Shown: piece by piece, positions 24,098 through 60,634 of the stretch
How positions within the stretch are numbered: position 1 is the first letter of the stretch
Layout of the letters: each line of letters starts with the position of its first letter
Source of the DNA: Klebsiella phage 150049
Sequence record: OP045498.1
Direction: 5' to 3' (one strand)
DNA: 64,000 bases
The notes under the pieces: generated by a model
Database searches by the model: none
What the model was told of the DNA's origin: nothing
What the model saw: only the letters and a program-made list of their open reading frames with translations
Made by a program: the position numbers and the translations under genes

Positions 24098-24511
24098 TCA
24101 GACTAATTCTACGTGACCACCGTCGTAAGTACCACGATCGATCTCATCATGATAATCACCAGAACTATTCCAGTCGGCACCAAAACGAAGTTTGACACCA
24201 AGTTCCTTACCAGCTTGTTCAAAAGCCTTCTTAACAGCCCAAAATGCTTCCAGATCTTTCCAATCAATCTTACCATTAATATATGGTGCAAAATCGATAG
24301 CGTCTCCCGTTACATGTTTACTCTTGCTAGGGTCTTTCAAAAATGAAGTACCATTAGCAATGTTTTGGGCACTTTGTGCTACTGTACGAATACCTTGTAC
24401 GATTGTGAAATCATACGGAGATAGTTCTAAAGCCCTACGAGCTACCTTTTGTAGCTCGGGCTTAACAGTTGCTAATTGTTTTTCGCTATTTTTACCAAAT
24501 TTAAAACTCAT
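24098..24511 (-). CDS. endolysin, peptidase M15 family (L-alanyl-D-glutamate peptidase type)
   Basis: 137 aa; SKHVTGDAID ... DYHDE ... GGHVEL metal-binding pattern; immediately downstream of the holin. Confidence 0.6.
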   Translation of the reverse strand: MSFKFGKNSEKQLATVKPELQKVARRALELSPYDFTIVQGIRTVAQSAQNIANGTSFLKDPSKSKHVTGDAIDFAPYINGKIDWKDLEAFWAVKKAFEQAGKELGVKLRFGADWNSSGDYHDEIDRGTYDGGHVELV

Positions 24512-25164
24512 ATAGATCTACCTAATGATCTTTGCTGCGGTGAGCAAAGCTTTGTTAAGTACTCATTAAATTGTTCCGAGTCAGCTGTATCTACGGGTTT
24601 ATCCTTCCAGGCAATACCTATGTATCCAGCATAGATATTATTTAGATTGAAATACGGACAAGTGTAGACGTAATTAAAAGTAACGTTCTTAAACGCGGGT
24701 ATATTTGACCCCATATATTTATTTACTTTTACACTTAAATCCGAAGCGTAGTTAAAGCCTTCCAGGTGACGTCTATAAAGTTCAGACGTCTTGTTTACTG
24801 CTTTATCGGCCAAGTCAGCCCTATCCAATTGCGCATTGCTTTCCCATGCAATAATGTTCGAATAATCGTTTATAGCATCGGGTTTATACTTGACTACAAA
24901 AACAGCATCCGCACCCGTCTGAGAGAAAAGGACCATGCTCTTTTCTCGTGCTACATTAGGAAAGTTATCTATCCTTTGGGTTTGAACATCCTGTAAAACC
25001 GCAGACGTGGAGAAAGTCTTTAAAAATGACATCACCTCGCTAGTGTTACTTACAAACAAGAAAATAATGACAGCAACTAAGATAGTTAGCAGACGTTTTA
25101 GTAGCGAAGCTGGATCTTTCGCTTCTTGGAGCAGTACCGTTAATAGTTGTAGAAACTTTTCCAC
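24508..25164 (-). CDS. t: holin (T4 t-type)
   Basis: 218 aa; single N-terminal TM; C-terminal YTCPYFNLNNIYAG ... LGRSI matches the T4 holin T periplasmic domain. Confidence 0.8.
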   Translation of the reverse strand: MEKFLQLLTVLLQEAKDPASLLKRLLTILVAVIIFLFVSNTSEVMSFLKTFSTSAVLQDVQTQRIDNFPNVAREKSMVLFSQTGADAVFVVKYKPDAINDYSNIIAWESNAQLDRADLADKAVNKTSELYRRHLEGFNYASDLSVKVNKYMGSNIPAFKNVTFNYVYTCPYFNLNNIYAGYIGIAWKDKPVDTADSEQFNEYLTKLCSPQQRSLGRSI

Positions 25165-25215
25165 TTGTAACCTCCTCTAACCATTACCATTATACTAATT
25201 CTAGAGGAAAATTAC
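25165..25215 (-). promoter_or_regulatory. sigma70-like promoter for t
   Basis: Minus strand TTGTAA-17-TATAAT. Confidence 0.45.
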
Positions 25216-25280
25216 AACGTGTTTTTAAAGATCACTTCTGGAGCATAATTTTTTGTCGTTGTCAAGAAGAATTTTAGGCA

Positions 25281-25318
25281 AAAGAAAAGCCAGAGTCGTT
25301 AAACTCTGGCTTAAAACT
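25281..25318 (-). terminator. rho-independent terminator
   Basis: GCCAGAGT ttaacg ACTCTGGC followed by TTTTCTTTT on the minus strand. Confidence 0.55.
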
Positions 25319-25320
25319 AC

Positions 25321-25920
25321 TTACACTTCTCCATGTTCTTCTGGATGCGGAGCTTGAGCTTTACTATATTGCTCTTTGCGATAATTCGCCAAAATTTCAA
25401 TACGCTTATTGATTTCTTTGCTGTTGAGGTAGATATTCTTATTCTCTTTTACCATATCCTCGATCTCGTCAATAGAGAAGAACGGAAAGTAAACATCGAG
25501 CATCATATCTTCTACAAACTGGTTGTAAGATTCATAGGCTTTCTTGATTTCTTGACCTTTCTCACAGAATCCGCCAGAGAACGTATGTCCCATAAGCGTA
25601 GCATGTGGATGTACAACCCAACCATGGCAAGACAGGAAGATTGTGCAGTAAGCAGAAGCACTAGGACCGAGCAGGTGTCCAATAACCGTTCCACGACAGT
25701 TAGCGATTAGGTTAGATAGTTGTGCAGCAGTATCAACGTAACCACCAGGCCCATTAATCATCAGATTAATTTCATCATCTTCACCAGCCTGCATCAGTAT
25801 CATGGATAGGTCACGATACTCATCTGGTGAACCTAATTCTTCGTCAAAGAAAAAGGTATATTCGTTAGATTGGCGAACAGTGTGAAACAGGTTAGTCTTT
25901 TCTTCTTTCTTGTTAGTCAT
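25321..25920 (-). CDS. ClpP-like serine peptidase
   Basis: INGPGG motif, catalytic-Ser context GPSASAY and His context VVHPH align with ClpP. Confidence 0.55.
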   Translation of the reverse strand: MTNKKEEKTNLFHTVRQSNEYTFFFDEELGSPDEYRDLSMILMQAGEDDEINLMINGPGGYVDTAAQLSNLIANCRGTVIGHLLGPSASAYCTIFLSCHGWVVHPHATLMGHTFSGGFCEKGQEIKKAYESYNQFVEDMMLDVYFPFFSIDEIEDMVKENKNIYLNSKEINKRIEILANYRKEQYSKAQAPHPEEHGEV

Positions 25921-25932
25921 AGTGATCCTTAA

Positions 25933-26685
25933 TTATCCAACTAGTGGTTCTAGCTCTAAGTCACAGAAGTGGTACACGTCGGTACGAAGTGCATCAAGTC
26001 CGTTGAAGGTATTCTCAAATTTATGAGAAATGTATTTTTCAGGAATACCGCTTTCAGACGGATGATCTGTCTCGATGCGATACTTATTAGTAATACCAGA
26101 TTCAACCTTAATAAGCATGGAATCCATATCTAGAGTATTGGTTTCCATGATTAGCTCTCCCTCATTGGGGAAACGCACATCGGTAACGATTGCGACGTCT
26201 GGGTCGTCTTTATCGATGGATTGCTCCAGAATTATGAGCCAAATGCGTTCATGCACCAGCTGCCTTCCTAACTCAGTACCTACAAGCTGTAGCATTTTTC
26301 TTGGGGAGATAAATACGCTATACAGCGCATCATCAGCTTGCCCAATTAACTGCTGAGGATCAAGGTATTTTCCTTCAAAAATCGGCCAAACGTACGAGAA
26401 GTCCTCAAACTTATCGATACCATACTTAAACCATACGTCTCTAGCTCGCTCCAATTGAGATTGTGTGACCGTAAACCATTGGTCAATCTCTTTTCCCCTG
26501 CGCTCTCCCAGAAACTCTGGAGTTACCCCGAGGATTACGGATGCAAGTTCGTAAACGGGTTTAGCAAAACTGTAACGACGGGATAAACACGTTGGGAACG
26601 TGTCATTACACCAGTCAATCATTAATTCTGCAACGGTATCTTTTCCCGCACCAGCCTCACCATGTAAACCGACTAATACTGACAT
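25933..26685 (-). CDS. 1: deoxynucleoside monophosphate kinase
   Basis: P-loop GEAGAGKDT; overall resemblance to T4 gp1 (LQLVGTELG, VTDVRFPNE). Confidence 0.55.
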   Translation of the reverse strand: MSVLVGLHGEAGAGKDTVAELMIDWCNDTFPTCLSRRYSFAKPVYELASVILGVTPEFLGERRGKEIDQWFTVTQSQLERARDVWFKYGIDKFEDFSYVWPIFEGKYLDPQQLIGQADDALYSVFISPRKMLQLVGTELGRQLVHERIWLIILEQSIDKDDPDVAIVTDVRFPNEGELIMETNTLDMDSMLIKVESGITNKYRIETDHPSESGIPEKYISHKFENTFNGLDALRTDVYHFCDLELEPLVG

Positions 26686-27038
26686 TAATCTTTCCTATTT
26701 GTAATGGGTGGATAGTAAACTAAGCAACGTTTTTCTTGTAAATCTTGACGATAGAAGCAAACCATACCGGTCAGTCGTGAAATGTAAGAGTAAACTGCTT
26801 CCTCGCATTTTGCTTTTGCATTCCAATCTTTGTAAGGTACAACAACTACTACGCCATCTTCACCATTTGTAGCTAATTTCTTTTCGAATTTGAAATCAAA
26901 GCTACACGGCTGAAGTCCTTTAGGCCAGTCAACATGAGCTTGCTTTAACTCATGAGATGGCTCTGGTTTTATTTCTTCTGCACAGCCTGTGATTGTGATT
27001 GCGGCTGCGAGCAGTACTCCAAGTTTCCAGTTAAACAT
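26685..27038 (-). CDS. o-spanin-like lipoprotein
   Basis: Lipobox ITGC; overlaps the i-spanin-like ORF. Confidence 0.45.
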   Translation of the reverse strand: MFNWKLGVLLAAAITITGCAEEIKPEPSHELKQAHVDWPKGLQPCSFDFKFEKKLATNGEDGVVVVVPYKDWNAKAKCEEAVYSYISRLTGMVCFYRQDLQEKRCLVYYPPITNRKD

Positions 27039-27418
27039 GCTAATCTTTCCTCGAACTCTTTATTCTGCTTTTTAGCAATTAATGTTACCAATCCAGGCTT
27101 TGCAGCGATAACATCCTGACGACTAAGAGCTTTATCTAACTGCTTAATCTTTTTGTCTAGATCTGCTTGCGAAATATTATTCATTGTGAAGTACTGATTC
27201 ATTAGAGTCTCACGAAGTTCACTCTCAGTTTTCACTTTATTAAGAGAAGTCTCTAGAGTGGAGATCTTTTTAGTCGCAACTGCAAGATCTCCCGCTAAAG
27301 TTTCAACCTTATTTACTAAATGATAAGCACCGAATCCGATACCTATCGCAAGACCAGCTCCCAGGATATACCACTTACCTTGCCATATTCCTGAAAGAAG
27401 TTTTTGTATCAAATCCAT
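26969..27418 (-). CDS. i-spanin-like protein (N-terminal TM plus coiled coil)
   Basis: Architecture of Rz/pseT.3-type spanins. Confidence 0.45.
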   Translation of the reverse strand: MDLIQKLLSGIWQGKWYILGAGLAIGIGFGAYHLVNKVETLAGDLAVATKKISTLETSLNKVKTESELRETLMNQYFTMNNISQADLDKKIKQLDKALSRQDVIAAKPGLVTLIAKKQNKEFEERLACLTGNLEYCSQPQSQSQAVQKK

Positions 27419-42258: not shown

Positions 42259-43300
42259 CGTTAAAGTGATGAATCAGCCAGTCTACTGCGTTTACTGCTT
42301 CGTCCATACGAACCTTATAGTCCGGGGAGTCAATATATACAGTACGCCCTTCTGGGAACTGATTAGGAAATTCTTTCTTCATCTGCTCGAACAGTTCAGA
42401 AGTAATTGAACGATCGGAGTTAATACGTAAACCATCATCTACCCACTTAACAGTAGGTGCTAAAACTATAACTAAATCATAATGCTCTTCTTTAGCAATA
42501 GCTGTTACAACCGGATTTTTACGATGCTCGTAAAGTCTGTGATAAAACTCTGTAATGAAAGCATTTGTGTCTACAAACATGATCTTATTTGCAGTACGTT
42601 CTGCCTCAAACTCTAGCTCTTTGTGCCTGAATGCAATTTTATTATAGTCCTCGCTAGTCAGGAGTTCTTCATTACCAACTAGATCAACTTCGCAGTAAGT
42701 ACGACCATATTCTTCTACCCACGAAGTATTATATAATTTCGCAAGGTACTTTGTTAAAGTTGTTTTGCCGGAGCTTTCAGTACCAATGATAACAACCTTA
42801 CGCACGTAGTCTTTACGAACTACGCTAGGTAGGAATTCCCAATACTTCATAAGATCATTACGAATCATAGTAGCTGAGATTGGAACACGAGTCCGATCAG
42901 AGTCTACAATATAATGTCCAAACTTCGGCAGATATTTCTTATATTCTGCATCATAGTCTATTTCGCTAGAGAAAATGGTAATTTCAGGCAAATGGCCATA
43001 ATTATCATTCAGGATTCTAGCATATTCTGGCCAACCGTTTGGGTACTCTGGAATATCATCTTCAATAATGTACTCTACCGAAACATGCTCGATATCAGCA
43101 TAAGTTTGCTCAAGCCAACGCAGTCGATTCTTTAACTGCAAGACTTCCTGATCACGTGTGTTTTGTTTATCCAGCCAGCGATTATCATGACTAACTACAA
43201 CAATAACTCGCTCACACATAGTTGCTGCTGTATTAATTAAGTTAATATGACCACGCGTTAATGGTGCGAACTTACCAATTACTAGACCAGTCTTAATCAT
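42245..43300 (-). CDS. nadR: NadR-like bifunctional NMN adenylyltransferase / ribosylnicotinamide kinase (no HTH domain)
   Basis: N-terminal GKFAPLTRGH (HxGH nucleotidyltransferase); C-terminal P-loop IIGTESSGKTTL; start ATG 43300 with cassette RBS. Confidence 0.7.
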   Translation of the reverse strand: MIKTGLVIGKFAPLTRGHINLINTAATMCERVIVVVSHDNRWLDKQNTRDQEVLQLKNRLRWLEQTYADIEHVSVEYIIEDDIPEYPNGWPEYARILNDNYGHLPEITIFSSEIDYDAEYKKYLPKFGHYIVDSDRTRVPISATMIRNDLMKYWEFLPSVVRKDYVRKVVIIGTESSGKTTLTKYLAKLYNTSWVEEYGRTYCEVDLVGNEELLTSEDYNKIAFRHKELEFEAERTANKIMFVDTNAFITEFYHRLYEHRKNPVVTAIAKEEHYDLVIVLAPTVKWVDDGLRINSDRSITSELFEQMKKEFPNQFPEGRTVYIDSPDYKVRMDEAVNAVDWLIHHFNVGEF

Positions 43301-50541: not shown

Positions 50542-51243
50542 TCAAATTTTGATTTTTTCGATCATGACGGCTACACAATAACTTTCAACTAAAGCATCGA
50601 ATGCTGGATCATGCTTCACAGGATAGATTCCATAACGAATGGTGTCCATCTTTTCCATTTTAGCTTTTGCCCAACTAGCACCTTCGGCTTCTAGATCTTT
50701 ATAGCTATAACCAGCTTGCATCCACTGATTACGGAAAGATCGAACGTTACCTAAGTTCCAGAATTTCCACGGAACTATTTCTTCATGGGTTCCGGCATGG
50801 AACGTATTTGCAGAGTAGATTGTCATATCAAACTCTGGGCCATTGCCGTAATACAGAGCATTATCTCCTAGAGACAATTCCATAATGTTCTGAGCCATAG
50901 AGAAGGCAGCATAATTAGAGCCTACGTCATTAGTGCAGTGATGCTTACCATCACGGAAGGCAATCAGTTTAGGATTACGACCATTTAGAGCCTCCATAAT
51001 ATGGAGCGCAGATGGACTGTTTTTAGCTTGATCCATCCAGAATGCAATAGTAGAGGCAGTTACCTTAGCACCCGCATTAAGCTGATCTTGAACGTCTAGA
51101 GTAACGAATACCAGATCAGGATCTTTATCAATTCCGTGCATCGCTACAAAAGCGAAAGAAGGCATTGCAATATGAGTAGTACCGCAATTTCCTGGAGTAC
51201 CTAGAGATTCAATGTCCAGCATACCAAAGGGCTTGAATTTCAT
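50542..51243 (-). CDS. dexA: DEDD-type exonuclease, T4 DexA-like
   Basis: N-terminal LDIESLGT (Exo I motif D-x-E); size and layout like T4 exonuclease A. Confidence 0.55.
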   Translation of the reverse strand: MKFKPFGMLDIESLGTPGNCGTTHIAMPSFAFVAMHGIDKDPDLVFVTLDVQDQLNAGAKVTASTIAFWMDQAKNSPSALHIMEALNGRNPKLIAFRDGKHHCTNDVGSNYAAFSMAQNIMELSLGDNALYYGNGPEFDMTIYSANTFHAGTHEEIVPWKFWNLGNVRSFRNQWMQAGYSYKDLEAEGASWAKAKMEKMDTIRYGIYPVKHDPAFDALVESYCVAVMIEKIKI

Positions 51244-52761: not shown

Positions 52762-53238
52762 TTACATCTCAGCAAGTTCTTGCTCAGTAATTACAGTATT
52801 GCATAGAGCATCAACTTCTTCATTACCACGAATACCTGAGTGACCTTTGACCTTAACAAAGGTTGGGTTAGTATCATGGAAATTAATATACTGTTGAGTT
52901 AGTTTAAATGCTTCTTGCCAGAGTTCTAGATTAAGAGGAGTTTCACCATCTCCCTTCTTCCAGCCTTTCTTCTGCCAAGACCACATCCAGCTTTCCATAC
53001 CATTTTTGCAGTAAGCAGAATCAGTGTAGATAATTACTGGACGATTATCTTTCTTAGTAGACCAACGAAGAACTTCTACAATTGCAGTAAGTTCCATTTC
53101 GTTATTAGTAGTTTTAGGGCTGAAGCCAGATTTAGAGCCAATACGATCATCATTATCATTATAGACAACGAATCCCCACGCACCTAAACCAGGATTGCCT
53201 TTACATGCACCATCTGTATATATGTGGAAAACCGACAT
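52762..53238 (-). CDS. rnhA: ribonuclease HI
   Basis: IYTDGACKGNPGLGAWG ... TDSAYC ... GHSGIRGNEEVDAL: canonical RNase H1 DEDD motifs. Confidence 0.8.
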   Translation of the reverse strand: MSVFHIYTDGACKGNPGLGAWGFVVYNDNDDRIGSKSGFSPKTTNNEMELTAIVEVLRWSTKKDNRPVIIYTDSAYCKNGMESWMWSWQKKGWKKGDGETPLNLELWQEAFKLTQQYINFHDTNPTFVKVKGHSGIRGNEEVDALCNTVITEQELAEM

Positions 53239-53507
53239 TATTTACTCCAATCAATTTCAAGCCAAAAACCTTCACGCTGTTCATACTTAGCTTCTACAAC
53301 ATAACCTAGTTTGCTAAGTTTTTGCATGACGCTATTTCTAGCGTTTTCTGAGTATTCAGTTAATCCCTGGATGTGACAGTTAAATTCTTTATCTTTAATA
53401 GCTTTGTCAATCTCTACGGCAATAAGTGATTCTAGGTCAATTACTTCCTTTTTAATGCTAGCAATAGTATTTTGTTTTGCTTCTAAAGCAGATAAAAGAA
53501 TAGACAT
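53238..53507 (-). CDS. hypothetical protein
   Basis: ATGA overlap. Confidence 0.45.
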   Translation of the reverse strand: MSILLSALEAKQNTIASIKKEVIDLESLIAVEIDKAIKDKEFNCHIQGLTEYSENARNSVMQKLSKLGYVVEAKYEQREGFWLEIDWSK

Positions 53508-53509
53508 AT

Positions 53510-54088
53510 TTATTCTCCAGTTACTAAAACATCATGTTGAGAAGATACACCACACATATAATCTGCACAATGCGTAAAAGCCAGATCAATGATTTCAAAT
53601 ATATCATCTACATCTAAATCTGTGGCTCGACAATCCGCAATAGCTAAACCTGTACGAATACTGGAAAGTACATCTTCTCCTCCACAGCCTACACCGGCAT
53701 ATTCAACTTCTAGAATAGAAGCATTAGATTGGAAAATAAAGATTCTTCCTTTGTAGAGCATAATAAATTGTCCCAGATTAGGTTCAGCATATTTTTCATT
53801 TTTCTTTTCGCCAAAATCTTTCTGGTTAAACATATCACGTAATTTAGGTACTATTTCCGTATATAAATATTTATCATCGGAAATATCTGCTAAACGTGGT
53901 GGTACAGTAAAGCTATGCTCTAGTAATTGTCCCATGTAGAAGGAACTAGTGTATCCGAAGTACAAATCATCAGAGATTTTGAATACTTTCGGATTTTTAA
54001 CCAGCAGTTTCGTATAGCCATTAGAACCCATACGATCACCAGCTAAGTATACTTTATCTTTATATTTAAATGCTACTATGGCTGTCAT
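53510..54088 (-). CDS. Ntn-hydrolase, HslV/proteasome beta-subunit-like peptidase
   Basis: Met-Thr N-terminus (MTAIVAFKYKDKVYLAGDRMGS), conserved Lys region, later AGVGCGGE resembling the HslV GSGG loop. Confidence 0.5.
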   Translation of the reverse strand: MTAIVAFKYKDKVYLAGDRMGSNGYTKLLVKNPKVFKISDDLYFGYTSSFYMGQLLEHSFTVPPRLADISDDKYLYTEIVPKLRDMFNQKDFGEKKNEKYAEPNLGQFIMLYKGRIFIFQSNASILEVEYAGVGCGGEDVLSSIRTGLAIADCRATDLDVDDIFEIIDLAFTHCADYMCGVSSQHDVLVTGE

Positions 54089-54186
54089 TATTAAATCCTT
54101 CTGTCAAATTAGAAGTATATTATATTTGAATTTCACTCAGTAAGCAAATGAAATTTAAATATAATAGCCCCGAAGGGCTATTTGAA
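54089..54186 (-). promoter_or_regulatory. early promoter cassette with hairpin
   Basis: Cassette plus TAGCCCC GAA GGGGCTA hairpin. Confidence 0.5.
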
Positions 54187-54540
54187 TTAGATTATAATCA
54201 AGATTATTAGGGCGTATGTCAGATAATGCAGTAACTGATCAAATCCTAAAGCTATCCAAAACTTAGCATCGCTTATAGCGTATTTACAGCGTTGTGCTTT
54301 CCAATAATCTATAATAAAGTGTAGAATTAATTCCATAATAGCTAAAGCTATAGACATTCCTGGTGATGTGAATAGGATTAGAATTGCAAATGTTAATCCA
54401 GCATGTACTAGTGAATGGGTTAATAATGGAAGTTTCCACCCTATTTTATGCGTCTTTCTTAGCATATATGGTGTTTGGAGTGGATAATCGGCCATAAAAT
54501 GTTTTAGAAAGAATATGACAAATAATAGTATAATTAACAT
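54187..54540 (-). CDS. multi-TM membrane protein
   Basis: Hydrophobic, His-containing. Confidence 0.45.
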   Translation of the reverse strand: MLIILLFVIFFLKHFMADYPLQTPYMLRKTHKIGWKLPLLTHSLVHAGLTFAILILFTSPGMSIALAIMELILHFIIDYWKAQRCKYAISDAKFWIALGFDQLLHYLTYALIILIII

Positions 54541-59872: not shown

Positions 59873-60625
59873 TTACACCTTCCCCATATCCTTAAAGATA
59901 TCGTAGAATGCTTTAGACTCTGGTGAGCGAACGTTGTCGATCAGTTCGATCATAGAGAAAGGAGAGTTTTCGTACTTCTCATAGACTTCCATAAGAAGTG
60001 CTAGACCTGAATCACCCTTGATGTCTTTCTGAGCTATATCTCCACAGATAATTAAACGACAATCTTGTCCTACACGAGTCAAAAGACAGATCATTGCTTC
60101 AACGGAGATATTCTGAGCTTCATCGACAATTACATAGGAGTTGTTGAAAGTTCGGCCACGGGCATGTTCGATAGCCAGGAATTTAATTTTCTGACGTTCG
60201 ACATATCCTTTGTAGGCGTGATCACCGATTGCCCATTTCATGCCATCGGCTATTGGTTCCAACCAAGGCTCTAGCTTTTCTGCCAGATCACCTGGGAGCA
60301 TACCAAGAGATTTACCTAGAGGTTCGTTCGGACGCACGAGGATCACTTGCTCAATATCTGAGTGAATGTCTACGAGTTCCTGAGCTGCAAGAACGGACGG
60401 AATAAAGGTTTTACCAGTACCTGGTTCACCAATACCCACAGTCACTGTGTTGTTCTTGATCATATTGATATATGATTTTTGCTCACGGTTTTTACCAACT
60501 AGGGATTTAGCAACTGGATTGGCGTAATCACCAGAGAAATCTGCTTGAATTACGTTACTCTCATACTTGTTGCCACGCTTTCTTGAACCATTGCGGTTCT
60601 CTCTTTTTTGACGTGCTTTTCCCAT
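59873..60625 (-). CDS. phoH: PhoH-like ATPase
   Basis: Walker A GEPGTGKT, Walker B VIVDEAQN; start ATG 60625 with TAGGAG RBS. Confidence 0.8.
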   Translation of the reverse strand: MGKARQKRENRNGSRKRGNKYESNVIQADFSGDYANPVAKSLVGKNREQKSYINMIKNNTVTVGIGEPGTGKTFIPSVLAAQELVDIHSDIEQVILVRPNEPLGKSLGMLPGDLAEKLEPWLEPIADGMKWAIGDHAYKGYVERQKIKFLAIEHARGRTFNNSYVIVDEAQNISVEAMICLLTRVGQDCRLIICGDIAQKDIKGDSGLALLMEVYEKYENSPFSMIELIDNVRSPESKAFYDIFKDMGKV

Positions 60626-60634
60626 AAATAACAC

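What the first reader, a model, noticed from the sequence alone, without database searches (positions are those of the whole stretch)
25321..25920. ClpP-like serine peptidase and (53510-54088) HslV/proteasome-like Ntn hydrolase encoded by the phage
Two different compartmentalised-protease catalytic subunits are present without cognate unfoldase genes in the window. They could pair with host ClpX/ClpA or HslU to retarget host proteolysis. They might also act as decoys or inhibitors of host proteases. Neither is a canonical T4 gene (the T4 prohead protease gp21 is unrelated).
Basis: partly seen in the sequence, partly recalled or inferred. Interest (0 to 1): 0.55.

Follow-up and report, generated by a model that had tools for sequence, protein, structure and literature searches.

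The report
Orphan ClpP-like and HslV-like phage peptidases
A T5-like phage (not T4-like) carries two genes for barrel-type protease subunits, one ClpP-like and one proteasome/HslV-like; both keep their core catalytic residues but lack the surfaces that normally dock the ATP-driven partner machines. Both genes are already annotated in many phage genomes, and their function is still unknown.

Summary
Both ORFs are real and sit at the stated coordinates. 25321-25920(-) passes Pfam CLP_protease and is the orthologue of phage T5 gene T5.042. 53510-54088(-) passes Pfam Proteasome and is annotated 'peptidase HslV family' in RefSeq. The window is an Epseptimavirus (a T5 relative), not a T4-like phage.

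The ClpP-like protein keeps Ser89 and His112. Its third triad residue is Asn162, where remote relatives have Asp or Glu. Four of the eight residues of the ClpX/ClpA docking pocket are polar, and the N-terminal axial loop is not conserved.

The HslV-like protein keeps Thr1, Asp17, Lys33 and Gly45 in 121 of 121 relatives. It has Gly-Cys-Gly instead of Gly-Ser-Gly. The HslU-contact position 28 and the basic pore residues are not conserved, and the pore loop is longer than in HslV.

No ClpX or HslU homologue is present in the window or in a closely related (about 99% identical) complete genome.

Most likely both are catalytically active peptidases that work without an unfoldase, as has been proposed for BPH. 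They are probably not partners of the host ClpX or HslU, and not decoys. The ClpP-like gene is core to T5-like phages. The HslV-like gene lies in a low-GC accessory insert that T5 lacks.

Both genes are known; their biology is not. Interest is modest.

The parts
25321..25920 (-). ClpP-fold serine peptidase gene (199 aa), the orthologue of T5.042. Catalytic codons: Ser89 at 25654-25656, His112 at 25585-25587, Asn162 at 25435-25437 (the Asp171 position of E. coli ClpP).
25287..25312 (-). Intrinsic-terminator-like hairpin (11-bp stem followed by a T run) directly after the ClpP-like stop codon. It would end the operon spanins - dNMP kinase - ClpP-like.
   Evidence: T5 has an annotated terminator at the same place.
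25189..25217 (-). Promoter-like site (TTGTAA-17-TATAAT, 10 of 12) ahead of the holin gene. It would separate the holin-endolysin unit from the ClpP-like gene.
   Evidence: T5 has an annotated promoter at the same place.
25933..27418 (-). Genes upstream in the same operon: dNMP kinase (25933-26685), o-spanin (26685-27038) and i-spanin (26969-27418). This is context, not part of the protease.
   Evidence: The order spanin-DNMK-ClpP-like-holin T-endolysin is kept in relatives with only about 40% identity.
24098..25164 (-). Downstream lysis genes: T-type holin (24508-25164, Pfam Phage_holin_T, E=1e-114) and M15 endolysin (24098-24511). Context only.
53510..54088 (-). Proteasome/HslV-like N-terminal-threonine hydrolase gene (192 aa). 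Key codons: Thr1 at 54083-54085, Asp17 at 54035-54037, Lys33 at 53987-53989, Gly45 at 53954-53956, and the Cys of Gly-Cys-Gly at 53684-53686.
53238..54540 (-). Low-GC three-gene insert (32.7% GC against 40.2% for the window), lying between thymidylate synthase and RNase H. It holds a DUF3307 membrane protein (54187-54540), the HslV-like gene, and an 89-aa ORF (53238-53507). T5 lacks it: there thy is followed directly by rnh.

Best explanation
Both genes most likely encode catalytically active, self-assembling peptidase subunits that work without an AAA+ unfoldase. They probably do not plug into the host ClpX/ClpA or HslU.

(1) The ClpP-like protein. It belongs to a phage-specific clade of ClpP-fold serine peptidases (phrog_1827). 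By profile score this clade is nearer to ClpP-related head-maturation proteases than to cellular ClpP. It keeps the Ser-His pair, the oxyanion-hole positions and the handle helix. It has lost the N-terminal axial loops and the hydrophobic docking pocket. It is the last gene of an early-type operon (spanins - dNMP kinase - ClpP-like). I infer that it cleaves peptides, unfolded chains or particular phage or host proteins in the infected cell.

(2) The HslV-like protein. It is a compact proteasome homologue of the HslV/BPH group. The active site is intact (Thr1 directly after Met, Asp17, Lys33, Gly45). There is no propeptide and no conserved HslU interface, and the pore loop is longer than in HslV. 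I infer that it acts as a stand-alone threonine peptidase, as is thought for BPH. It is an accessory gene, probably acquired horizontally.

Shown here: fold, family, residue conservation, absence of an unfoldase gene, gene context. Inferred: oligomeric state, activity, independence from unfoldases, substrates.
For: Family and fold.

ClpP-like residues. Ser89 and His112 are invariant even among phage relatives with 21-37% identity. Gly60 and Ala90 at the oxyanion positions are conserved, and a handle helix is predicted.

ClpP docking pocket. E. coli Y60, Y62, F82, I90, M92, F112, L114 and L189 correspond to N52, M54, N74, H82, L84, V102, H104 and A178. H82 is invariant, N52 nearly so, and positions 74 and 104 are always polar. 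The N-terminus varies in length and sequence across the family, and residues 1-15 have pLDDT below 50.

NCBIfam. The protein scores 15.1 bits on the ClpP equivalog against a cut-off of 308.6. The best model is the ClpP-related head-maturation protease, at 40.7 bits.

HslV-like residues. Thr1, Asp17, Lys33 and Gly45 are present in 121 of 121 relatives, and 117 of 121 start Met-Thr. Position 28 is V/T/I/L (rarely N or R), never Lys. R35 of HslV is Phe here. R86 and R89 are not kept, and the pore loop is about 11 residues longer than in HslV.

Precedent. BPH also lacks the HslU-interface residues, has a long pore loop, and has no known unfoldase (PMC5777263).

No partner gene. No ClpX or HslU homologue is found in the window or in the closely related genome. 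No AAA+ gene lies next to homologues in any of the 21 other contexts inspected.

Not the prohead protease.
Against: - No activity, assembly or binding data exist for either protein. The BF23 paper calls the function of the Clp protease 'currently unknown' (PMC10644984).
- In Listeria ClpP1, Asn at the third triad position goes with inactivity unless the ring is stacked on a ClpP2 ring (PMC9257651). The T5-clade protein might therefore be weak or inactive on its own.
- The pocket argument rests on a sequence alignment at about 18% identity. The blocks concerned do align without gaps.
- HslV on its own is a poor peptidase, and purified BPH showed no activity on model substrates. 'Stand-alone' may therefore still hide an unknown activator.
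- The HslU-contact role of Lys28 and Arg35 is recalled from the HslVU structural literature and was not checked in a paper here.
Confidence: 0.5

Rival explanations
1. One reading: the phage subunits dock onto the host unfoldases (ClpX/ClpA for the ClpP-like protein, HslU for the HslV-like protein) and retarget host ATP-dependent proteolysis.
For: No unfoldase gene is present in the phage. Both hosts have ClpX and HslU. The catalytic residues are kept.
Against: Four of the eight docking-pocket residues are polar, and the N-terminal loops are not conserved. The HslV position-28 Lys and the basic pore cluster are absent throughout the family. The same families occur in phages of very different hosts, which argues against tuning to one host's unfoldase.
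Confidence: 0.12
2. The ClpP-like protein behaves like Listeria ClpP1. It would form a chaperone-blind ring with a Ser-His-Asn triad that stacks on a host ClpP ring. The mixed tetradecamer would then either boost or poison host ClpXP/ClpAP.
For: It shares the two features cited for LmClpP1: an Asn triad and the lack of chaperone-binding sites. The handle motif GG(F/Y)xxKGQE resembles the ClpP motif GGYQGQATD, and the basic residue at E. coli position R170 is mostly kept.
Against: Identity to E. coli ClpP is only about 18% over 92 aligned columns, far below what paired ClpP isoforms are expected to share. Remote family members have Asp or Glu at the third position, so the family as a whole looks self-sufficient. 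The family is spread over phages of many hosts.
Confidence: 0.08
3. The ClpP-like protein is a virion- or assembly-associated protease. It would be a second maturation or processing enzyme, or would be packaged and delivered with the DNA.
For: The best profile matches after its own family are ClpP-related head-maturation proteases (phrog_1684 E=1.8e-20; NF045542 40.7 bits). The BF23 orthologue was detected in virion preparations with 3 peptides, at an intensity similar to low-copy tail proteins (PMC10644984). Several relatives have a charged C-terminal helical tail of variable length.
Against: Those virions were only PEG-precipitated, so a large soluble complex could have co-precipitated. The gene lies in an early-type operon far from the head genes, and a dedicated prohead protease sits next to the capsid gene. 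In the other phage lineages inspected the gene sits among early, replication or nucleotide-metabolism genes, not head genes.
Confidence: 0.1
4. The proteins are non-catalytic decoys or inhibitors that titrate host unfoldases or proteases.
For: The triad Asp is Asn in the T5 clade, and the Gly-Ser-Gly serine is Cys.
Against: The nucleophiles and general bases are invariant across deep divergence. The surfaces a decoy would need in order to bind unfoldases are the parts that are not conserved.
Confidence: 0.05

Closest known systems
Phage T5 gene T5.042 ('ATP-dependent protease') and BF23 ORF45 ('Clp protease')
   Same: Orthologue. It has the same length (199 aa) and the same position between dnk and the holin, with the same terminator and promoter arrangement. 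It has the same Ser-His-Asn residues.
   Different: Nothing of substance; identity is about 89% (P0002 class). The function of T5.042 itself is unknown.
Cellular ClpP (MEROPS S14; E. coli ClpP)
   Same: ClpP fold (rmsd about 2.5 A). It shares the Ser-His catalytic pair, the oxyanion positions, the INxPGG motif and the handle helix.
   Different: - About 18% identity.
- Fails the ClpP equivalog model (15.1 bits against 308.6).
- Asp171 is Asn.
- No conserved N-terminal axial loop.
- The IGF/LGF docking pocket is half polar.
- Extra C-terminal charged helix.
Listeria monocytogenes ClpP1
   Same: Ser-His-Asn triad and no chaperone-docking site (PMC9257651).
   Different: LmClpP1 is a cellular paralogue that works stacked on ClpP2. 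The phage protein is far more divergent from any host ClpP, and its remote relatives keep Asp or Glu.
ClpP-related phage head-maturation proteases (NCBIfam NF045542; phrog_1684, phrog_94)
   Same: These are the best non-self profile matches. They are unfoldase-independent ClpP-fold enzymes of phages.
   Different: The score is below the family cut-off (40.7 against 120). The gene is not in the head module, and the genome has its own prohead protease next to the capsid gene.
HslV (ClpQ)
   Same: Same fold. It shares Thr1 directly after Met, Asp17, Lys33 and Gly45, and a compact subunit without the C-terminal helix H5.
   Different: - About 15-20% identity.
- No match to an HslV-specific NCBIfam model in the scan.
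- Gly-Cys-Gly instead of Gly-Ser-Gly.
- Lys28, Arg35, Arg86 and Arg89 are not kept.
- Longer H1-H2 and pore loops.
- No adjacent hslU.
BPH and the phage-borne proteasome homologues (AAH, CPH, PPH) of Fuchs, Alva and Lupas 2021
   Same: BPH gives the best TM-scores (0.70-0.71). Like BPH, this protein has no partner unfoldase, a lengthened pore loop and no propeptide. Phage and prophage carriage matches what that paper reports for AAH and PPH.
   Different: The pore loop has mixed Lys/Glu charge, not the acidic run of BPH. The protein is not PPH-like: PPH has about 140 aa and lacks helix H2, whereas this one has 192 aa with H2 predicted. Which named cluster it belongs to could not be tested.

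Membership tests
Pfam CLP_protease (PF00574) superfamily | Profile score at or above the gathering cut-off | tested here: met
   30.8 bits against 20.2. A profile of the family finds 104 PDB ClpP sequences at E<=0.01, the best at 6.9e-14.
Cellular ClpP (NCBIfam TIGR00493 equivalog) | Score at or above the curated cut-off | tested here: not met
   15.1 bits against 308.6.
Cellular ClpP | Ser-His-Asp catalytic triad | tested here: not met
   Ser89 and His112 are present and invariant. The Asp171 position is Asn162 in this phage and in T5, and Asp, Glu or Gln in remote relatives.
Cellular ClpP | Hydrophobic pocket for the unfoldase IGF/LGF loops, and a conserved N-terminal axial loop | tested here: not met
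   Y60, F82, I90 and L114 correspond to N52, N74, H82 and H104. The N-terminus is variable, and residues 1-15 have pLDDT below 50.
Cellular ClpP | Assembly as two stacked heptameric rings | not testable with these tools
   Only monomer models are available. A handle helix and a GG-x-x-KGQ motif are present.
ClpP-related head-maturation protease (NF045542) | Score at or above the cut-off, and a gene in the head module | tested here: not met
   40.7 bits against 120. The gene lies between dnk and the holin, and a separate prohead protease sits next to the capsid gene.
Pfam Proteasome (PF00227) superfamily | Profile score at or above the gathering cut-off | tested here: met
   37.8 bits against 22.4. 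Foldseek finds HslV, BPH and 20S beta subunits with probability 1.00.
Proteasome-type Ntn threonine peptidase | Thr1 nucleophile at the mature N-terminus, with Asp17, Lys33 and the oxyanion Gly | tested here: met
   All four residues are present in 121 of 121 relatives, and 117 of 121 start Met-Thr.
HslV | Gly-Ser-Gly motif (Ser124) | tested here: not met
   Gly-Cys-Gly here. Cys occurs in 98 and Ser in 21 of 121 relatives.
HslV | HslU interface and basic pore cluster (Lys28, Arg35; Arg86, Arg89, Lys90), and an adjacent hslU gene | tested here: not met
   Position 28 is V/T/I/L, Arg35 is Phe, and Arg86 and Arg89 are not kept. No hslU homologue is present. The basic cluster is cited from PMC5777263. 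The roles of Lys28 and Arg35 are recalled, not verified.
HslV | Match to an HslV-specific NCBIfam model | tested here: not met
   The NCBIfam scan returned only sub-threshold proteasome-beta matches (14.7 and 12.6 bits) and no HslV-named model.
BPH | Long, strongly acidic pore loop; heptameric double ring | tested here: inconclusive
   The loop is about 11 residues longer than in HslV but has mixed Lys/Glu charge. The ring symmetry cannot be tested here.
AAH / CPH / PPH clusters (Fuchs et al. 2021) | Membership of the published sequence cluster | not tested
PPH is unlikely: it has about 140 aa and no helix H2, whereas this protein has 192 aa with H2 at residues 71-89.

The most novel reading that the evidence does not exclude
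The missing ATPase may be the phage's own PhoH-like P-loop ATPase (window 59873-60634, minus strand). On this reading, PhoH together with a ClpP-like and/or HslV-like peptidase forms a previously unrecognised phage ATP-dependent proteolysis module.

The lead is positional. A PhoH gene lies within about 2.3 kb of one of these peptidase genes in seven phage lineages:
- phiPsa374, with an 8-nt overlap
- Rheinheimera Barba28A, adjacent
- Acinetobacter Ab7
- Certrevirus F1M1E
- Aeromonas 2L372D
- PBECO4
- metagenomic contig L027

By tblastn, PhoH matches only about 7% of phage records.
Probability: 0.05. Interest if true: 0.85.

Novelty: already known. Interest (0 to 1): 0.3.

Why it matters
Phage-encoded chambered peptidases without partners are common. 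ClpP-like matches occur in 1,316 of 50,697 phage records, and the HslV-like family has thousands of members in metagenomes, mostly phage- or prophage-borne among the contexts inspected. None has a demonstrated function.

Knowing whether they work alone, invade host protease complexes, or use an unconventional ATPase would bear on three things: how virulent phages remodel the host proteome, how proteasome-like enzymes work without unfoldases, and possibly the long-unexplained role of phage PhoH.

For this particular finding the practical message is that it is an ordinary, already annotated feature of T5-like genomes. The sequence evidence argues against the proposed hijacking of host unfoldases.

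Tried and rejected
- T4-like origin: rejected. The window is 99% identical to Epseptimavirus genomes.
- ClpP-like gene as the prohead protease: rejected.
- A third protease in the window: rejected. The 'putative metallopeptidase' annotated in relatives, at 50542-51243, matches an Rv2179c-like 3'-5' exoribonuclease domain instead.
- Defence-system kinship: no PADLOC match for either protease.
- Functional data on T5.042: none found. The literature gives only 'function currently unknown' and a virion-proteomics detection.
- A broad ClpP-like alignment could not seed a scan of viral contigs because it was too divergent.
- Assignment of the HslV-like protein to a named Fuchs cluster failed for lack of sequences.
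- The link between the ClpP-like gene and lysis was considered. The order spanin-dnk-ClpP-like-holin-endolysin is conserved. I did not adopt it, because dnk shares that order, a terminator and promoter separate the gene from the holin, and the link is absent outside Demerecviridae.

Full report
**What is there.** Two ATG-initiated minus-strand ORFs sit exactly at the stated coordinates: 25321-25920 (199 aa) and 53510-54088 (192 aa). Each has an AAGGA ribosome-binding site 6-8 nt upstream. The first scores 30.8 bits on Pfam CLP_protease (cut-off 20.2) and E=5e-89 on phrog_1827 'ATP-dependent protease'. The second scores 37.8 bits on Pfam Proteasome (cut-off 22.4) and E=5e-21 on phrog_1040 'peptidase HslV family'.

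**Which phage.** The regions around both genes are 99-99.8% identical to Epseptimavirus genomes of the family Demerecviridae, such as Salmonella phage GEC_vB_N3 and Escherichia phage IrmaTschudi. This is a T5 relative, not a T4 relative. The ClpP-like gene is the orthologue of T5.042, annotated as 'ATP-dependent protease' in the T5 reference record. The HslV-like gene is annotated 'peptidase HslV family' or 'proteasome subunit-like protein' in several records. Both genes are therefore already in the databases. A paper on the T5 relative BF23 states that the function of the Clp protease 'is currently unknown' (PMC10644984).

**ClpP-like protein: fold and active site.**
- The AlphaFold model has mean pLDDT 81.8. 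Residues 1-15 and 117-121 are of low confidence.
- The model superposes on many solved ClpP structures at about 2.5 A over about 160 columns.
- It is closer still to a clade of viral proteins, with E from 1e-27 to 1e-13.
- HMMER alignments to solved ClpPs, and an alignment with the E. coli ClpP sequence taken from the K-12 genome, place Ser89 on Ser97, His112 on His122 and Asn162 on Asp171.
- Ser89 and His112 are invariant in 16 close relatives, and also in homologues from Pseudomonas, Rheinheimera, Vibrio, Acinetobacter and Enterobacter phages with 21-37% identity.
- The third position is Asn in T5 and Epseptimavirus. Elsewhere it is Asp, Glu or Gln.
- A Ser-His-Asn triad is known from Listeria ClpP1. 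That protein is inactive alone, lacks chaperone-binding sites, and works only when stacked on a ClpP2 ring (PMC9257651).

**ClpP-like protein: partner surfaces.** The eight residues of the E. coli ClpP hydrophobic pocket are a list I recall from the ClpP literature. They map as follows.

| E. coli ClpP | This protein |
|---|---|
| Y60 | N52 |
| Y62 | M54 |
| F82 | N74 |
| I90 | H82 |
| M92 | L84 |
| F112 | V102 |
| L114 | H104 |
| L189 | A178 |

The sequence blocks concerned align without gaps. Of the four polar replacements, H82 is invariant and N52 nearly so in the family, and positions 74 and 104 are always polar. The N-terminal segment forms the axial loops in ClpP. Here it varies widely in length and shares no conserved residue beyond Met1. 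NCBIfam gives 15.1 bits on the ClpP equivalog against a cut-off of 308.6. The best model is the ClpP-related head-maturation protease at 40.7 bits against 120. The protein is therefore a member of the ClpP superfamily. It is neither a cellular-type ClpP nor a bona fide head-maturation protease.

**ClpP-like gene: context.**
- The gene is the last in the run i-spanin, o-spanin, dNMP kinase, ClpP-like.
- An 11-bp-stem terminator follows at 25312-25287. A promoter-like site at 25217-25189 then precedes the T-type holin and the endolysin. T5 carries the same annotated signals.
- The order spanin, dNMP kinase, ClpP-like, holin T, endolysin is kept in metagenomic relatives with only about 40% identity. 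In one of these the holin-endolysin pair is inverted and the endolysin is of a different type.
- Outside Demerecviridae the homologue sits among early, replication or nucleotide-metabolism genes: PhoH, dCMP deaminase, DNA ligase, dihydrofolate reductase, UvsX. It was never seen next to portal or capsid genes.
- The genome has its own prohead protease beside the major capsid gene.
- The BF23 orthologue was detected in virion preparations with three peptides. Those virions were only PEG-precipitated.

**HslV-like protein: fold and active site.**
- The model is confident, with pLDDT 90.5.
- It matches HslV (E=1.9e-10) and BPH (TM 0.70-0.71).
- A family profile aligns Thr2 to Thr1, Asp18 to Asp17, Lys34 to Lys33, Gly45 to Gly45, and Gly-Cys-Gly to the Gly-Ser-Gly of Thermotoga HslV.
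- In an alignment of 121 relatives, Thr1, Asp17, Lys33 and Gly45 are invariant.
- 117 of the 121 start Met-Thr, so there is no propeptide.
- The middle residue of Gly-x-Gly is Cys in 98 and Ser in 21.
- The family has a signature G-Y-T-S-S-F-x-M-G-Q after the oxyanion Gly.

**HslV-like protein: partner surfaces.**
- The position of HslV Lys28 is V, T, I or L and never Lys. Arg35 is Phe. I recall both residues as HslU contacts and did not verify this in a paper.
- The HslV basic pore cluster Arg86/Arg89/Lys90 (cited from PMC5777263) is not kept.
- The loop after helix H2 is about 11 residues longer than in HslV.
- The BPH paper reports the same pattern for BPH, for which no partner unfoldase was found.
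- The NCBIfam scan returned no HslV-specific model.

**HslV-like gene: context and distribution.**
- In T5, thymidylate synthase is followed directly by RNase H.
- Here a three-gene insert lies between them: a DUF3307 membrane protein, the HslV-like gene and an 89-aa ORF. Its GC content is 32.7% against 40.2% for the window.
- By tblastn the protein is found in 125 phage records at 90% identity or more, in none between 60 and 90%, and in 72 remote ones. The ClpP-like protein is found in 1,316 records.
- The HslV-like gene is therefore an accessory gene of part of the Epseptimavirus group.
- A profile search found at least 5,697 relatives in the metagenomic protein collection.
- The bacterial-genome hits I inspected (Devosia, Spongiibacter, a Rhizobium etli plasmid) lie in prophages or mobile regions.
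- Phage-borne proteasome homologues (PPH, AAH, CPH) were already described by Fuchs, Alva and Lupas in 2021 (PMC8665760).

**Unfoldases.** I ran tblastn with E. coli ClpX and HslU against the window and against the fetched 1-111,420 of the 115,446-bp IrmaTschudi genome. It gave only a 45-residue Walker-A match (E=0.001) inside a NadR-like gene. The annotation of that genome lists no AAA+ protease partner.

**Interpretation.** Invariant nucleophiles across deep divergence argue for real peptidases and against decoys. The docking surfaces are the parts that are not conserved, which argues against canonical use of host ClpX/ClpA or HslU. I therefore favour unfoldase-independent, self-compartmentalised peptidases, at confidence about 0.5. 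Substrates are unknown. Three rivals remain open:
- docking to host unfoldases (0.12);
- a Listeria-ClpP1-like mixed ring with host ClpP (0.08);
- a virion-associated role for the ClpP-like protein (0.10).

**A lead seen on the way.** A PhoH-like ATPase gene lies next to or within about 2.3 kb of a ClpP-like or HslV-like gene in seven phage lineages. By tblastn, PhoH matches about 7% of phage records (3,497 of 50,697). In this window PhoH (59873-60634) is 5.8 kb from the HslV-like gene and 34 kb from the ClpP-like gene. The proximity may only reflect clustering of auxiliary early genes in large virulent phages. I did not run a phylogenetically corrected count.

**Verdict.** The T4 framing is wrong, and the host-unfoldase hypothesis is not supported by the sequence. 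The feature is already known at the annotation level. Interest is modest (0.3).

Noticed in passing
window 59873-60634 (-); L004 3214-4579; L005 3198-4720; L007 1056-4627; L011 1838-4978; L017 110-3552; L018 3001-6585; L027 2048-4858: A PhoH-like ATPase gene recurs next to or within about 2.3 kb of a ClpP-like or HslV-like peptidase gene in seven phage lineages. In Pseudomonas phage phiPsa374 the two genes overlap by 8 nt. By tblastn, PhoH matches about 7% of phage records. This could be module-level clustering or a functional link.
   Followed up: partly
L018 2065-3594 (Escherichia phage PBECO4); L017 3001-4454 (Aeromonas phage 2L372D): In the jumbo phage PBECO4, a 202-aa 'protease' with a weak ClpP-superfamily match (Pfam 17.5 bits; hhalign probability 23%) lies 328 bp upstream of the HslV-like gene. 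Aeromonas phage 2L372D has two adjacent HslV-family genes of 183 and 294 aa, which hints at a two-subunit assembly.
   Followed up: partly
window 53238-54540: The HslV-like gene sits in a three-gene, low-GC insert (32.7% against 40.2%), together with a DUF3307 membrane protein and an 89-aa ORF of unknown function (phrog_13270). T5 lacks the insert and has thy directly followed by rnh. Erwinia phage KEY has the HslV-like gene with different small neighbours.
   Followed up: partly
window 54119-54180 (-): Upstream of the HslV-like gene there is a hairpin (AATAGCCCTTCGGGGCTATT) followed by TTGCTT-17-TATAAT. The scan tool did not list it because the first hexamer matches only 3 of 6. The gene may head its own transcription unit.
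   Followed up: no
window 50542-51243 (-): This ORF is annotated 'putative metallopeptidase' in IrmaTschudi and Erwinia phage KEY. In Pfam it matches an Rv2179c-like 3'-5' exoribonuclease domain instead (31.9 bits against 27). The annotation is probably wrong.
   Followed up: partly
window 24508-25164 (-); L022 5639-6831: The T5-type holin is a T4 holin-T family protein (Pfam E=1e-114). In one distant relative the holin-endolysin pair is inverted and the M15 endolysin is replaced by an Amidase_3 enzyme, while the dNMP kinase and ClpP-like genes keep their place.
   Followed up: no
HslV-like family, window residues 45-54 and 134-136: The family has a signature G-Y-T-S-S-F-x-M-G-Q after the oxyanion Gly. 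It also has Cys (81%) rather than Ser in the Gly-x-Gly motif that contacts Thr1 in proteasomes. The effect on chemistry is unknown.
   Followed up: no
BF23 ORF45 and ORF112 (PMC10644984): The T5.042 orthologue and dihydrofolate reductase were both detected in PEG-precipitated BF23 virions, while the abundant D5 protein was not. It is not settled whether the protease is truly packaged.
   Followed up: no
window 42668-42802 (-): The only similarity to HslU or ClpX anywhere in the phage is a Walker-A stretch inside the NadR-like nicotinamide-nucleotide adenylyltransferase gene. It is a trivial P-loop match.
   Followed up: yes
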